DNA of 4,384 nt from positions 1 through 4,384 of the IMG/VR virus record IMGVR_UViG_3300022758_000081. One strand, written 5' to 3'. The notes beneath the pieces were generated by a model. That model was not told the DNA's origin. It saw only the letters and a list, made by a program, of their open reading frames with translations, and ran no database searches. Positions 1 to 4,384 of the stretch are shown here, in pieces. The position numbers and the translations under genes are program-made. The stretch is from a virus. Taxonomy: Duplodnaviria; Heunggongvirae; Uroviricota; Caudoviricetes. Every line of letters starts with the position of its first letter. The first letter of the stretch is position 1.

Positions 1-1096
1 GCCGGGATTCTGGAACTCTCCGTGAAATGCAACATGGGCGATCCGGATAACGATTTCTTCGAGCTTCGTGCAGATGACCTGCGTGATGAGCGTTCTTACC
101 GTCGCCGCATCCAGGCATCCGCCGAAAAAACTGGCGAATAACATTGAGTCAGCAATTGCCAAACAGGCAACCGAAATGGGCTCACTTGTTGTTCACGATA
201 CCCGCGCAATTGGTCCATCTACTGGCCTGTCTGGCTGGGATTTTGTGTCTGATGCAGAGCGCCTGATGTTCTCCCGTGAGCTAAACCGCGATATGGGCAT
301 CAGTTACTTCCTGAACCCTGACGATTACCGCAAAGCAGGCCGCAACCTGGTAGATGGTGACATCTTTGGGCGCGTTCCTGAAGACGCGTATCGCAACGGT
401 ACTATTCAGCGTCAGATTGCTGGCTTTGATGAAATTCTTCGCTCACCGAAACTTCCGGCAGTTACCAAGTCAACCGCTACTGGTGTAACTGTTTCTGGTG
501 CGCAGAAGTTTAAGCCGCAGGCATACACTCTTGATACCGATGGTAACAAAGAGAACGTCGACAACCGTGTTGCAACTGTGACCGTATCCTCCACCACCGG
601 GTTTAAGCGCGGCGACAAAATCAGCTTCACTGGTGTGAAATTCCTGTCTCAGATGGCGAAGAACGTGCTGACTGATGATGCTACTTTCTCAATCACCCGT
701 GTGATCGATGGTACTCACATCGAAATCACGCCGAAGCCGATTGCACTGGATGACGCGTCACTGACAAAAGAAGAGAAGGCTTACGCTAACGTAAACACCT
801 CTCTTGCTGATACCACTCCGGTAAACGTTCTGAACGTGGCAACAACCACCGCTAACGTGTTCTGGGCTGATGACTCAATCCGACTGCTGTCTCAGCCTAT
901 CCCGGTAACCCATGAGCTGTTTGCTGGCATGAAAACGTCTTCCTTCAGCATTCCTGGTATTGGTGTTAACGGCATCTTCGCAACGCAGGGTGATATCAAC
1001 ACTCTGTCTGGTAAGTGCCGTATTGCTGTGTGGTATTCAGCATGTGCTGTACGACCAGAGGCAATTGGTGTTGGTCTGCCTAACCAGACTGCGTGA
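1..1096 (+). CDS. P22-like major capsid (coat) protein, gp5 family; 5'-partial and interrupted by a +1 nt frameshift
   Basis: Frame 1 from the window start translates [38 protein letters not shown], which matches the P22 coat protein as I recall it (..[33 protein letters not shown]). That frame stops at TAA 139-141. Coat homology (KKLANNIE...EMGSLV...[10 protein letters not shown]...GDKISF.GVKFL.QMAKNVL...[12 protein letters not shown]) resumes in frame 2 and runs to TGA 1094-1096. The frame switch maps to the A6 run at 125-130. The ORF-track start at GTG 68 is internal, not the real start. Confidence 0.88.
2..22. repeat. Left copy of a 21-bp perfect inverted repeat (CCGGGATTCTGGAACTCTCCG) shared with the right window terminus
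   Basis: Direct comparison: the reverse complement of 4364-4384 is identical to 2-22, and similarity stops abruptly at the inner boundary. The repeat lies inside the coat ORF (encoding GILELS). Confidence 0.85.
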
Positions 1097-1104
1097 TAAC
1101 CAGA

Positions 1105-1126
1105 GGGAGCTTCGGCTCCCTTTTCT
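1105..1126 (+). terminator. Putative intrinsic (rho-independent) terminator/attenuator downstream of the coat gene
   Basis: Perfect 6-bp GC-rich stem GGGAGC (1105-1110) / GCTCCC (1115-1120) with a TTCG tetraloop (1111-1114), followed by TTTTCT (1121-1126), starting 9 nt after the coat stop codon. Partial terminators after the highly expressed coat gene are a known feature of tailed-phage late operons. Confidence 0.6.
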
Positions 1127-1139
1127 ATTGGAGATACCA

Positions 1140-1727
1140 ATGAGCGTAATGATTTTTCAGGCTGGCGGAGATACCAAAATCTGGGGGCGCAAGCTGAAAA
1201 CGAAAACCGTTGATCCTGATGATGTAGCTGTGCACTTAGCAAATGGCTGGTATAAGCACCCTGACGATGTTCCTGATGATCCTCTTGTTGGTGATCAAAT
1301 TGGGAGTGTTGGCGGAGGTGAAACTTCCCCAGTTGATATGGGCGAAGTGTCCGACGGTTATCACACTTTTAACGAGCTTTACGCTCACCGAGTGCGCCTC
1401 TTCTCATCGCTGATGCATGCTTACGCTGAGCTTTCGTGGTGGTCTCGCAAACACAGTGACGGTGAAGAGTGGGATGGCTGGATCATTGCTGGTATCACCA
1501 CTCCAGAAGGCGAAATCACTTATCACCTACCTGTTGAAGAAATCGAGTTCCTTCCTGAAGGTACTGAGCTTGAGTTCGGGAAAGAGTGGGATGGTCATGA
1601 AGCAAATGATGTTCTTGGACGACTCCTGAGTTTGCGTCCGGCCATTGCAGAGCCAGAAGAAAAACAGCGTAAAAAGCCTGGTCGAAAACCTAAGGCGGCA
1701 GCAGATGAACCTGACAACGAAGGGTGA
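1140..1727 (+). CDS. Hypothetical acidic protein (195 aa) between the coat and gp4 genes; function unknown, possible moron
   Basis: ATG 1140-1142 preceded by GGAG at 1130-1133 (6-nt spacer); open to TGA 1725-1727. The product is visibly Asp/Glu-rich ([53 protein letters not shown]) with a short basic C-terminal tail ([11 protein letters not shown]). Its 3' end overlaps the gp4 start by 23 nt. I do not recognise the family. Confidence 0.6.
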
Positions 1728-2316
1728 TTTAGTTCTTGCGGCATTACGTAAGCTCGGTGTGGCATCAAATGCCACGTTAACCGATGTCGAACCGCAGTCT
1801 ATGGAAGACGGCGTCAACGACCTTGAAATGATGATGGCTGAATGGCTTGGCGGTGATGCGTCACCTGGGATCAACGTTGGCTACATTTTTGCTGATGCAG
1901 ATGTCGCTCCGGATCCGGGCGATGAACACGGTTTATCAAATAACGCTATCAATGCCGTTATTTTCAATCTTGCCTGCCGCATTGCTCCAGATTATGCGCT
2001 GGAAGCGTCTGCAAAACTTATAACCACTGCCAGATACGGGAAAGAGCGACTCGTCAAACTGTCTGCAATGGACAGAGCAAAAGCCGCTAAATGTAAGTCC
2101 GGTTATCCAAACCGTATGCCTGTTGGTAGCGGTAACCAGTTGGCGAAGTGGAACGGTTGGAATTACTTCCACCGAAAGAACCTTGCGATAACGGGAGCGA
2201 ATAATGCCGATTCAGCAACTTCCGCTCATGAAAGGTGTCGGCAAAGACTTCCGAAATGCCGACTATATCGACTATCTACCAGTGAATATGTTGGCTACAC
2301 CCAAAGAAATCCTTAA
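1705..2316 (+). CDS. P22 gp4-like head completion / portal-binding tail accessory factor; 3' end uncertain (possible frameshift)
   Basis: ATG 1705-1707; the N-terminal region [33 protein letters not shown]...[14 protein letters not shown] matches my recollection of P22 gp4. As read, the frame runs 112 nt into gene 10 and ends in an Arg/Cys-rich tail ([15 protein letters not shown]...) that looks like out-of-frame read-through. A TAA at 2202-2204 in the -1 frame would give a TAATG stop-start overlap with gene 10. Confidence 0.72.
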
Positions 2317-3620
2317 CAGCAGCGGATATCTTCGCTCATTCCCGGGCATTGCCAAACGCTCTGATGTAAACGGTGTATCGCGCGGAGTCGAGTACAACAT
2401 GGCGCAGAATGCTGTTTATCGCGTGTGTGGTGGGAAGCTTTACAAAGGCGAAAGCGAAGTCGGTGACGTCGCCGGAAGTGGTCGCGTATCAATGGCGCAT
2501 GGTCGGACATCTCAGGCTGTAGGTGTTAATGGTCAACTGGTCGAGTATCGCTATGATGGCACGGTTAAAACCGTCTCAAACTGGCCTACAGACAGCGGAT
2601 TCACACAGTACGAGTTAGGTTCAGTTCGCGACATTACGCGCTTACGTGGGCGTTATGCGTGGTCAAAAGACGGAACTGATTCATGGTTTATCACTGACCT
2701 TGGAGACGAATCGCACCCTGACCGATACAGTGCACAATATCGTGCCGAGTCTCAGCCTGACGGTATTATCGGCATCGGAACATGGCGAGACTTCATCGTC
2801 TGCTTTGGTTCATCGACGATTGAATATTTCTCCCTGACTGGTGCAACCACAGTTGGTGCTGCTTTGTATGTCGCACAGCCATCGCTGATGGTGCAAAAAG
2901 GCATCGCCGGGACTTACTGCAAACGCCGTTTGCTGATTCCTATGCGTTTATCAGCAATCCGGCAACAGGTGCGCCGTCTGTATACATCATCGGCTCCGGT
3001 CAGGTGTCACCAATTGCCAGCGAGAGCATTGAGAAATCCTCCGCTCCTACACTGCTGATGAACTGGCTGATGGTGTGATGGAATCGCTGCGGTTTGATGC
3101 TCATGAGTTGCTGATTATCCACCTTCCTCGCCATGTTCTCGTGTACGACGCATCTTCAAGCGCCAATGGTCCGCAATGGTGTGTACTGAAAACAGGCTTG
3201 TATGACGATGTGTACCGCGCTATCGACTTCATTTACGAAGGAAATCAGATAACGTGCGGCGATAAGCTGGAATCGGTGACCGGGAAATTGCAGTTCGATA
3301 TCAGCAGTCAGTATGGGCTTCAACAGGAACACCTGCTGTTTACTCCACTGTTCAAAGCGGATAACGCCAGATGCTTCGATCTGGAGGTGGAATCATCCAC
3401 TGGCGTAGCTCAGTACGCCGACCGCCTGTTCCTCTCTGCAACCACTGACGGCATAAATTATGGGCGTGAGCAGATGATTGAGCAGAATGAACCGTTCGTT
3501 TACGACAAACGCGTTTTGTGGAAACGAGTAGGGCGCATCAGGAAAAACATTGGTTTCAAATTGCGCGTTATCACGAAGTCACCTGTCACTCTGTCTGGCT
3601 GCCAGATAAGGATTGAGTAA
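2204..3620 (+). CDS. P22 gp10-like tail accessory factor (head completion / tail hub protein), interrupted by two -1 nt frameshifts
   Basis: ATG 2204-2206 with GGGAG at 2193-2197. [49 protein letters not shown]... closely matches P22 gp10 as I recall it. Homology runs in frame 2 to about 2920, frame 1 from 2923 to 3033 ([38 protein letters not shown]), and frame 0 from 3033 to TAA 3618-3620 ([39 protein letters not shown]...LSGCQIRIE). The ORF-track pieces 2204..3058 and 3075..3620 are fragments of this one gene. The stop overlaps the next ATG as TAATG (3618-3622). Confidence 0.88.
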
Positions 3621-3757
3621 TGGCGGATTCGAATCTCAATGTGCCGGTAATCATTCAGGCTACACGGCTAGACACATCAGTCCTTCCACGCAATATCTTC
3701 TCGCAGTACATCTGCCCGTGGCGGAATTTGCGCGCAGCGAACGATGTGACGCACTGA
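3620..3757 (+). pseudogene. Remnant of the P22 gp26-like tail needle gene: N-terminal ~30 codons only
   Basis: ATG 3620-3622 is translationally coupled to gp10. [28 protein letters not shown] matches the gp26 N-terminus as I recall it ([28 protein letters not shown]). Similarity ends at about codon 29-30 (near 3705-3712). The frame then reads unrelated sequence ([17 protein letters not shown]) to TGA 3755-3757. No frame downstream encodes the expected coiled-coil needle shaft. Confidence 0.7.
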
Positions 3758-4038
3758 ACGGTGGTGTTAGTCAGAATGTATCGCCAGAACGCCAGCCCGA
3801 TTTCCTTGCTGAAGCCGCGAATCTCTGGCAGGTACATGGCGTGGCAATCGAATGTCAGCGGCTGAATCTCCTGATAGTAAACAATGCCGCCGAACTGCCC
3901 GTGCACGTTCACCTCAAAGTAACGGCAATCAGGTTTGTAGTCGTATCCATCACCGTTGTTGCTCCCGGCGATAATGTCAGGGTGATTTCCTACTGCTTCG
4001 ATCAGGTCGATGTTTCGCGTTGGTTTGAACTGAATCAT
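3655..4038 (-). CDS. Hypothetical protein (127 aa), unknown function; convergent with the late operon
   Basis: Start ATG is the complement of 4036-4038, with GGAG about 7 nt upstream on the minus strand. It overlaps the upstream gene's TAA as TAATG. Codon choice in the sampled core (aac ggt gat tac gac aaa cgt gtg) looks like genuine enterobacterial coding sequence, whereas the in-register plus-strand ORF 3613..4095 uses rarer codons (agg, gta). The last ~17 codons are antisense to the gp26 remnant and use rare codons (agg, gga, ata), so the native C-terminus is probably lost or altered. Confidence 0.55.
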
Positions 4039-4384
4039 TACTGCTCCGCGATTATCTTGATGGTTGTGGCAGTAAACGCCGCACCATTTGACTGAATGGT
4101 TAACGTACTGCCATTTGTGGCAAGAAAGCCGTCTTTATCCACGCTGAAGAACGTAGCTAACAGGATGTTGTCGGTTGTTGTCGCCGCATTACGACTGCTG
4201 ACCAGTGTGTCAGGAACAGAGCCGGAAAAGGTTAGCTGCATTGACCTGTTTGCGGTTCCGCTGGGCCACGTCCCGACGATCGACAGCTTGAAGAACAAGG
4301 TTTTGTTCTCGTTGAACACAACCATCTTGTTGTTAACGGTGTCGAAGAATGGTGCCAACGTGCCGGAGAGTTCCAGAATCCCGG
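4038..4384 (-). CDS. Hypothetical protein, C-terminal portion only (the gene continues beyond the right edge of the window); Thr/Ser/Asn-rich, beta-type sequence
   Basis: The minus-strand frame is open from the window edge (..GILELSGTLAPFFDTVNNKMVVFNENK...GSTLTIQSNGAAFTATTIKIIAEQ) to a TAA that is the complement of 4038-4040. The TTG at 4356-4358 reported by the ORF track is not a real start. The composition resembles a fibre, adhesin or receptor-binding domain, but I recognise no family. Its first visible codons lie in the 21-nt terminal inverted repeat. Confidence 0.5.
   Translation of the reverse strand, partial: GILELSGTLAPFFDTVNNKMVVFNENKTLFFKLSIVGTWPSGTANRSMQLTFSGSVPDTLVSSRNAATTTDNILLATFFSVDKDGFLATNGSTLTIQSNGAAFTATTIKIIAEQ
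4364..4384. repeat. Right copy of the 21-bp perfect inverted repeat (reverse complement of 2-22)
   Basis: CGGAGAGTTCCAGAATCCCGG at 4364-4384 is the reverse complement of 2-22. It is read in the same frame (GILELS) by the minus-strand terminal ORF. Confidence 0.85.

What the first reader, a model, noticed from the sequence alone, without database searches (positions are those of the whole stretch)
2915..2930. First -1 nt frameshift in gp10 at an A3 run (TGCAAACGCC)
gp10 homology leaves frame 2 after ..GIAGTYCK and continues in frame 1 as TPFADSYAF... One extra A at 2921-2923 (AAA to AAAA) restores ..[12 protein letters not shown].., which matches P22 gp10.
Basis: seen in the sequence. Interest (0 to 1): 0.45.

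Follow-up and report, generated by a model that had tools for sequence, protein, structure and literature searches.

The report
One-base deletion breaking phage gp10
The tail-hub gene (gp10) of a P22/Sf6-like phage really is broken here by a missing A. The same 4.4-kb metagenome contig has three more private one-base frameshifts and two chimeric junctions, so this is most likely a sequencing or assembly error and not biology.

Summary
Observation confirmed. At 2921-2923 the window has AAA where every intact relative examined has AAAA. gp10 homology moves from frame 2 (..GIAGTYCK) to frame 1 (TPFADSYAF..). A second A4>A3 at 3034-3036 moves it to frame 3. Restoring both A's gives one 472-aa ORF, 468/472 identical to Sf6 gp8 and aligned end to end with solved Sf6 and P22 tail-hub chains.

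The A3 allele is private. It has 0 exact hits in three public collections, against at least 120 for the A4 allele. No copy occurs in 5,426 complete E. coli genomes or in the phage collection.

The window is a whole 4,384-nt JGI/IMG metagenome contig. It also carries private frameshifts in the coat gene (+G at 124) and gp4 (GG>G at 2178). An inverted junction lies at 3702-3707, a second junction at 4364-4367, and the two ends form a 21-nt inverted repeat. Only one private substitution was found.

Four indels against one substitution, on a chimeric molecule, points to technical error (about 0.72). A real, very recent inactivation in a defective phage is the rival (about 0.25). Programmed frameshifting is rejected: no slippery heptamer, no unusual downstream structure, no conservation. 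Interest is low.

The parts
2204..3620 (+). gp10 / Sf6 gp8 tail-hub gene ('packaged DNA stabilization protein gp10', PF11134). It is 1,417 nt here against 1,419 nt in all intact relatives, and is split over frames 2, 1 and 3.
2921..2923 (+). The finding: an A3 run where relatives have A4. The 1-nt deletion shifts gp10 from frame 2 to frame 1 after residue K239. It also turns GCAAAAC-GCC-GTTTGC into a perfect 6-bp hairpin, GCAAAC(GCC)GTTTGC.
2204..3058 (+). The ORF actually open in the window: 284 aa, of which 239 are native gp10 residues and 45 are out of frame.
2924..3033 (+). gp10 residues about 240-277 (TPFADSYAF...SESIEK), readable only in frame 1.
3023..3023 (+). The only private substitution in the window: C>A, giving A274E in the repaired protein. 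It lies 11 nt upstream of the second deletion.
3034..3036 (+). Second A4>A3 deletion in gp10, shifting frame 1 to frame 3.
3075..3620 (+). gp10 C-terminal part (PF11134 positions 289-469), in frame 3. The 180-aa version starting at ATG 3078 is on record once only, from a JGI/IMG contig of length 4,384.
124..124 (+). Private +G insertion in the coat gene (GCC-AAAAAA > GCCGAAAAAA), shifting frame 1 to frame 2.
2178..2178 (+). Private GG>G deletion in gp4 (the head-to-tail adaptor). The repaired 166-aa protein is an exact match to a protein seen on at least 1,000 contigs.
3702..3707 (.). Junction 1: gp26 codon 30 is joined to inverted gp14 codon 113 through the 6-nt microhomology CGCAGT.
   Evidence: the junction 28-mer is absent from all three collections
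3708..4363 (-). Inverted block: the 5' 112 codons of gp14 (DUF2824) plus the C-terminal Sf6-type tail needle knob (PF16532).
4364..4384 (-). Junction 2 (microhomology CGGA, 4364-4367) followed by an inverted copy of window 2-22 (coat codons 68-75). This forms a 21-nt perfect terminal inverted repeat.

Best explanation
The A3 run at 2921-2923 is a one-base under-count of a conserved A4 run in an otherwise ordinary gp10 (tail hub) gene of a P22/Sf6-like Escherichia/Shigella phage. It is most likely not present in the biological template. It is one of four private single-base indels on a short metagenome contig that is itself a chimeric, fold-back molecule. That pattern fits indel-prone reads (pyrosequencing, semiconductor or single-molecule) at low coverage, and/or in-vitro template switching during amplification. 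Taken literally, the sequence would give a 284-aa product that lacks the C-terminal half of the beta-propeller, and no functional tail hub. What is shown: the deletion, its privacy, the co-occurring indels and the junctions. What is inferred: that their cause is technical.
For: (1) Privacy. The 24-mer carrying A3 has 0 hits in genome contigs, viral contigs and metagenome contigs. The A4 version has at least 120 hits in viral contigs alone. In 5,426 complete E. coli genomes the best 76-nt matches around both sites are perfect or near-perfect apart from the one-base gap, and the phage collection gives the same result for the first site. In an evenly spaced sample of 60 of the 925 matching E. coli records, every match longer than 62 nt is exactly 2 nt longer than the window.
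(2) Spectrum. Every 25-mer of the window occurs in at least one of 133 related loci, except those covering position 1, four indels (124, 2178, 2921-2923, 3034-3036), one substitution (3023) and the two junctions (per-gene panels). That is 4 private indels against 1 private substitution. If indels were about 10% of mutations, as I recall for E. coli, at least 4 of 5 being indels has a probability of about 5e-4 (my calculation).
(3) All four indels frameshift genes needed to build the virion (coat, gp4 and gp10 twice). Yet the repaired gp4 is an exact copy of a very common protein, and the repaired gp10 is 468/472 identical to Sf6 gp8. There is no sign of relaxed selection.
(4) The contig is structurally aberrant. 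It has an inverted junction with 6-nt microhomology, a second junction with 4-nt microhomology, and a 3' end that copies the contig's own first 21 nt in reverse. This matches published multiple displacement amplification (MDA) chimeras: more than 85% were inverted with an intervening deletion, and priming occurred at 2-21 nt of complementarity (PMC1855051).
(5) The window is a whole JGI/IMG metagenome contig seen only once.
(6) Only one other gp10 in the panel has small indels, and it is also metagenome-derived (L068).
Against: No reads, coverage or platform information are available, so the error was never observed directly. A3/A4 and G1/G2 runs are short for classical homopolymer miscalls. 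If the contig came from an Illumina assembly, consensus indels of this kind would be unusual and the changes would then be real. The +G at 124 is not a homopolymer length change. The privacy of the allele would equally be expected for a recent real mutation.
Confidence: 0.72

Rival explanations
1. Genuine inactivating mutation. The contig faithfully represents a defective P22-like prophage, or a defective phage genome, in which gp10 has truly lost one A. The loss could come from replication slippage or from quasi-palindrome template switching. gp10 would then be a pseudogene alongside coat, gp4, gp26 and gp14.
For: The deletion is really in the deposited sequence. One-base deletions in short runs are the commonest natural indel (my own knowledge). 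The deletion converts an imperfect inverted repeat into a perfect 6-bp hairpin with a 3-nt loop, as quasi-palindrome correction predicts. Prophage remnants with a truncated gp10 exist in complete E. coli genomes (rows H157-H160). The rearrangement junctions carry microhomology, which in-vivo template switching also produces.
Against: Four private indels against one private substitution is the opposite of a neutral mutation spectrum. The allele is in no other genome or contig, so it is not a lineage trait. In the sampled finished E. coli genomes, full-length gp10 matches are always 1,419 nt, and the decayed copies are truncated and carry no extra small indels. No host flank, IS element or other hallmark of an old remnant is on the contig. 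Its ends fold back on themselves. A long inverted duplication of that kind would, to my knowledge, be unstable in vivo.
Confidence: 0.25
2. Recoding. gp10 would be expressed from this sequence by programmed -1 ribosomal frameshifting, or by transcriptional slippage at the A runs. The tract could also be a phase-variable switch.
For: The downstream frame is the -1 frame. Both shifts occur at A runs. A small hairpin begins at the site.
Against: The site has no X XXY YYZ heptamer (C TGC AAA C). An A3 run is far shorter than the roughly 7-9 nt tracts I recall being needed for transcriptional slippage or phase variation. The 96 nt from 2905 fold no better than shuffled controls (z = -1.67, 13 of 200 shuffles as good). 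The flanking sequence is identical to that of genomes with A4 and a single ORF. Two consecutive -1 events would be needed. There are 0 other carriers, and 90 of the 91 other panel genes are single ORFs.
Confidence: 0.02

Closest known systems
Shigella phage Sf6 gene 8 protein / Salmonella phage P22 gp10 (tail hub; 'packaged DNA stabilization protein gp10'; Pfam PF11134 Phage_stabilise; PDB 7sg7, 8tvr, 8u10, 8eap)
   Same: The gene sits in the same position (coat - small ORF - gp4 - gp10 - gp26). DNA identity to Sf6 is 95.8%. After repair the protein is 472 aa, 468/472 identical to Sf6 gp8, and aligns 1-472 with P22 gp10.
   Different: The window copy lacks one A at each of two A4 runs, so no single ORF encodes the protein. 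The open product keeps only residues 1-239. The hub is a six-bladed beta-propeller with an apical domain built from both termini (PMC9728967), so the truncated product would lack roughly the C-terminal half of the propeller and the C-terminal share of that domain (my inference from residue numbers).
Homopolymer-length and other one-base indel errors in low-coverage consensus from indel-prone sequencing platforms
   Same: The indels are single-base. Three of the four are contractions of short runs. They far outnumber substitutions, are unique to one contig, and hit genes that are intact everywhere else.
   Different: The runs are short (2-4 nt), and the platform of this contig is unknown. The assignment is by pattern only.
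Multiple displacement amplification chimeras (Lasken & Stockwell 2007, PMC1855051)
   Same: There is an inverted join with an intervening deletion between sites 1.2 kb apart. Junction microhomologies of 6 and 4 nt fall within the published 2-21 nt range. The rearrangement is intramolecular, and the 3' end copies the molecule's own 5' end.
   Different: It is not known whether the sample was amplified. In-vivo template switching would leave the same scars.
Quasi-palindrome template-switch mutations (known from E. coli genetics; cited from my own knowledge)
   Same: Losing the A removes the one unpaired base of GCAAAAC/GTTTGC and gives a perfect hairpin. DNA folding energy is -4.8 against -3.1 kcal/mol.
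   Different: Only one of the four indels has this property, so it may be coincidence. Simple slippage or a miscall explains the site equally well.

Membership tests
P22 gp10 / Sf6 gp8 tail hub (PF11134) | Full-length match to the family profile | tested here: met
   Repaired protein: PF11134 positions 1-469 of 469, E = 1.8e-298. Unrepaired ORFs cover positions 1-239 and 289-469.
P22 gp10 / Sf6 gp8 tail hub (PF11134) | Conserved position between gp4 (adaptor) and gp26 (needle) | tested here: met
   The order matches annotated relatives L001-L013.
P22 gp10 / Sf6 gp8 tail hub (PF11134) | A single uninterrupted ORF of about 472 codons, that is, a functional gene | tested here: not met
   Two 1-nt deletions split the gene over three frames. 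90 of the 91 other panel genes are intact at 1,419 nt.
Programmed -1 ribosomal frameshift site | Slippery heptamer X XXY YYZ at the shift point | tested here: not met
   The sequence is C TGC AAA C.
Programmed -1 ribosomal frameshift site | Stimulatory downstream RNA structure | tested here: inconclusive
   MFE is -30.8 kcal/mol, z = -1.67, and 13 of 200 shuffles fold as well. The same sequence occurs in relatives that are not frameshifted.
Programmed -1 ribosomal frameshift site | The two-frame arrangement is conserved in relatives | tested here: not met
   0 carriers of the A3 allele in any collection searched.
Phase-variable or transcriptional-slippage homopolymer | A long tract (about 7 nt or more; from my own knowledge) with length polymorphism among relatives | tested here: not met
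   The tract is 3 nt. The A4 version gave at least 120 exact hits and the A3 version none, and all 91 other panel genes have A at this column.
Decayed prophage pseudogene | Excess of private substitutions, or relaxed constraint, alongside the frameshifts | tested here: not met
   One private substitution in 4,384 nt. The panel median is 2 per gp10 gene.
Decayed prophage pseudogene | The same lesion is inherited by related genomes, or host flanks are present | tested here: not met
   There are no carriers elsewhere. The contig has no host DNA.
Sequencing or consensus indel error | Indels greatly outnumber substitutions and are confined to one assembly | tested here: met
   4 indels against 1 substitution. 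The contig is on record once, from JGI/IMG.
Sequencing or consensus indel error | Reads disagree on, or under-support, the run length | not testable with these tools
   No reads or platform metadata are available.
Amplification (MDA-type) chimera | Inverted join with an intervening deletion and 2-21 nt of junction complementarity | tested here: met
   Junction 1 has CGCAGT, is inverted, and joins sites 1.2 kb apart. Junction 2 has CGGA. The ends form a terminal fold-back of 21 nt. The criteria come from PMC1855051.
Amplification (MDA-type) chimera | The sample was actually amplified with phi29 polymerase | not testable with these tools
   Sample metadata could not be retrieved.

The most novel reading that the evidence does not exclude
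The lesions are real and arose in vivo. On this reading the contig is a replication-derived, fold-back rearranged P22-like genome, such as a defective prophage or a defective particle genome. Template switching would have produced both inverted junctions and, by quasi-palindrome correction, the A4>A3 change at 2921-2923. It would be a natural snapshot of template-switch mutagenesis acting at several scales on one molecule.
Probability: 0.07. Interest if true: 0.35.

Novelty: not a real feature. Interest (0 to 1): 0.06.

Why it matters
It matters mainly for quality control. Taken at face value, this contig would add false pseudogenes of the coat, gp4, gp10, gp26 and gp14 genes to catalogues, along with truncated 'novel' ORFs of 284, 203, 127 and 45 aa. 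If the deletion were real, it would only be one more inactivated structural gene in a defective P22-like element, which is a well-known situation. Neither reading opens a new question about gp10 or about frameshifting.

Tried and rejected
(1) Source and sister contigs. Exact look-ups of four products unique to this contig found nothing: the 284-aa gp10', the 127-aa gp14' fusion, the 180-aa gp10 C-terminal part and the 203-aa gp4'. A cluster look-up later showed the 180-aa product once, on a JGI/IMG contig of 4,384 nt, with no sample information.

(2) Carriers of the same allele or junction. Exact scans for the A3 24-mer and the junction 28-mer returned 0 in genome contigs, viral contigs and metagenome contigs.

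(3) A near-identical intact relative. The best found is L005 (GCA_949281575.1) at 98.2%, and the best complete E. coli genome is at 97.2%. The exact repaired gp10 protein, with either E274 or A274, is not in the 15-billion-protein collection.

(4) Recoding. I looked for a slippery heptamer and a stimulatory structure and found no support.

(5) Quasi-palindrome correction as a common cause of all four indels. Only the 2921-2923 site fits.

(6) The terminal 21-nt inverted repeat as transposon ends. I rejected this because the left arm is in-frame coat sequence shared with all relatives, and the right arm is a copy of it joined through a 4-nt microhomology.

(7) The first MAFFT run of the 92-sequence panel timed out and was repeated with fast settings.

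Full report
**What the window is.** The 4,384-nt window is the late-operon segment of a P22/Sf6-like (Lederbergvirus) phage of Escherichia/Shigella.
- Coat gene, C-terminal 5/6: 2-1096.
- Coat terminator stem-loop: about 1100-1128.
- An intact 195-aa WDGH-domain ORF: 1140-1727.
- gp4 head-to-tail adaptor: from 1705.
- gp10 tail hub: 2204-3620.
- The first 29 codons of the gp26 needle: from 3620.
- On the minus strand, the 5' 112 codons of gp14 (DUF2824) and the C-terminal Sf6-type needle knob: 3708-4363.

These assignments rest. A cluster look-up shows that the 180-aa C-terminal gp10 fragment encoded at 3078-3617 is on record exactly once, from JGI/IMG, on a contig of length 4,384. The window is therefore a complete metagenome contig.

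**Checking the observation.** The sequence at 2918-2927 is TGCAAACGCC, with an A3 run at 2921-2923. Frame 2 reads ..[11 protein letters not shown] and then nonsense until a stop at 3056-3058. Frame 1 reads [38 protein letters not shown]. Frame 3 then reads [31 protein letters not shown]...

Alignment with three annotated intact genes (E. coli CT02, phage Sf6, E. coli JCKP02) shows exactly two gaps in 1,417 nt. One is an A at 2921-2923 and the other an A at 3034-3036. Both are A4>A3.

Inserting the two A's yields a single 472-codon ORF. It is 468/472 identical to Sf6 gp8. It matches PF11134 over profile positions 1-469. It aligns 1-472 without gaps to the solved Sf6 gp8 (7sg7_T) and P22 gp10 (8tvr_S) chains, including the [12 protein letters not shown] motif.

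**Is the allele shared?** It is not.
- The 24-mer with A3 has 0 exact matches in genome contigs, viral contigs and metagenome contigs.
- A 76-nt query round the first site finds 302 complete E. coli genomes. The best seven match every base but span 77 nt, so they carry the extra A.
- The second site behaves the same way in 869 genomes, and the first site does so in phages.
- In 60 rows spaced evenly down the ranking of 925 E. coli records, every match longer than 62 nt is exactly 2 nt longer than the window segment it covers.
- In a panel of 91 further gp10 genes, 90 are intact at 1,419 nt, and the two gap columns belong to the window only.

**The rest of the contig changes the picture.** Compared with relatives, the contig has two further private frameshifts. 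One is a +G at 124 in the coat gene. The other is GG>G at 2178 in gp4. The repaired gp4 is an exact copy of a 166-aa protein seen on at least 1,000 contigs.

A 25-mer test is the most compact summary. Every 25-mer of the window is present in at least one of 133 related loci, except those that cover the following:
- position 1;
- the four indels;
- one substitution (3023, C>A, 11 nt from the second gp10 deletion);
- the two junctions.

The contig's private small changes are therefore 4 indels and 1 substitution, and its private substitution load is below the panel median. I recall that in E. coli substitutions outnumber small indels roughly ten to one. If so, at least 4 of 5 changes being indels has a probability of about 5e-4 (my calculation). 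Real decay that had gathered four frameshifts in 3.7 kb should also have left tens of substitutions. In the sampled finished genomes, full-length gp10 matches keep the 1,419-nt length, and the decayed copies are truncated and carry no extra small indels.

**Structure of the contig.** At 3702-3707, gp26 codon 30 is joined through the microhomology CGCAGT to the inverted strand at gp14 codon 113. The two sites lie 1.2 kb apart in a normal genome. The inverted block runs back to knob codon 209. There, through the microhomology CGGA (4364-4367), it is joined to an inverted copy of coat codons 75-68. That copy is the reverse complement of window 2-22, so the contig ends in a 21-nt perfect terminal inverted repeat.

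In other words, the 3' end of the + strand copies the molecule's own 5' end and stops there. The junction 28-mer is absent from all three collections.

These joins are inverted, involve an intervening deletion, have short junction complementarity and are intramolecular. That is how multiple displacement amplification chimeras were described: more than 85% inverted, with priming at 2-21 nt of complementarity (PMC1855051). In-vivo template switching could leave similar scars. However, a phage genome with a long inverted duplication around this segment would not, to my knowledge, be stable or packageable.

**Mechanism and consequences.** The tail hub is a hexamer of six-bladed beta-propellers. 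Its apical domain is built from both the N and C termini and docks between two adaptor subunits. The hub also recruits the tailspikes and is plugged by the needle (PMC9728967). A product with only residues 1-239 plus 45 out-of-frame residues would lack roughly the C-terminal half of the propeller and the C-terminal contribution to the docking domain. If the sequence were real, the gene would be dead (inference).

Recoding is not credible, for these reasons:
- There is no X XXY YYZ heptamer.
- A 3-nt run is far too short for transcriptional slippage or phase variation (my own knowledge).
- The RNA downstream folds no better than shuffles (z = -1.67).
- The flanks are identical to those of genomes with A4 and a single ORF.
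- Two successive -1 events would be needed.

One detail is worth recording. Losing the A turns GCAAAAC-GCC-GTTTGC into a perfect 6-bp hairpin with a 3-nt loop (DNA folding energy -4.8 against -3.1 kcal/mol). That is the change a quasi-palindrome template switch would make. The other three indels show no such property, so I treat this as a possible coincidence.

**Verdict.** The feature is best explained as a technical one-base error on an error-laden, chimeric metagenome contig (confidence about 0.72). The rival is a real, very recent inactivating deletion in a defective phage genome (about 0.25). Programmed frameshifting is about 0.02. Read-level data would settle the matter, and these tools cannot reach it. 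On every reading the finding is ordinary, so interest is low.

Noticed in passing
window 124: A private +G insertion in the coat gene (GCC-AAAAAA > GCCGAAAAAA) splits it into frames 1 and 2. It is absent from 40 unique coat sequences in the panel.
   Followed up: yes
window 2178: A private GG>G deletion frameshifts gp4, so its ORF runs on to 2316 over the start of gp10. The repaired 166-aa protein is an exact match to a protein seen on at least 1,000 contigs.
   Followed up: yes
window 3023 and 3034-3036: A second A4>A3 deletion in gp10 has the contig's only private substitution (C>A, A274E) 11 nt upstream. The two changes are clustered.
   Followed up: yes
window 3702-3707: An inversion junction joins gp26 codon 30 to inverted gp14 codon 113 through the microhomology CGCAGT. 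It creates fusion ORFs of 45 aa (+ strand) and 127 aa (- strand). It was found nowhere else.
   Followed up: yes
window 1-22 and 4364-4384: The contig ends are a perfect 21-nt inverted repeat. The right end is an inverted copy of coat codons 68-75, joined to the knob gene through CGGA. Base 1 (G) does not match the coat sequence of the closest relative L005, which has A there. The contig looks like a snap-back or fold-back molecule.
   Followed up: partly
window 1140-1727: An intact 195-aa WDGH-domain (PF25311) ORF lies between the coat terminator and gp4, overlapping the gp4 start by 23 nt. In Sf6 and E. coli JCKP02 this slot holds a short unrelated ORF (gene 6, 186 nt), so it is an exchangeable accessory slot. 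The exact protein is indexed in 290 blocks of the assembly collection.
   Followed up: partly
L068 (IMGVR_UViG_3300045988_091342), gp10 alignment columns 967 and 1066: This is the only other gp10 in the 91-gene panel with small indels. It has two private 1-nt deletions and 11 in-frame stops, and is also metagenome-derived. It is probably another error-bearing contig.
   Followed up: partly
L010 11066-13157; L009 12506-13051; L008 and L013 8073-8588: HNH (homing-type) endonuclease genes are inserted at different points of the same late operon in relatives. In L010 one sits between a 34-aa gp10 5' fragment and a full gp10. In L009 one sits between gp10 and the needle gene. In L008 and L013 one sits between the scaffold and coat genes.
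   Followed up: no
window 1100-1128: A GC-rich stem-loop (GGGAGC TTCG GCTCCC) followed by a T run lies just after the coat stop codon. It corresponds in position to the annotated 't coat' terminator of Sf6.
   Followed up: no
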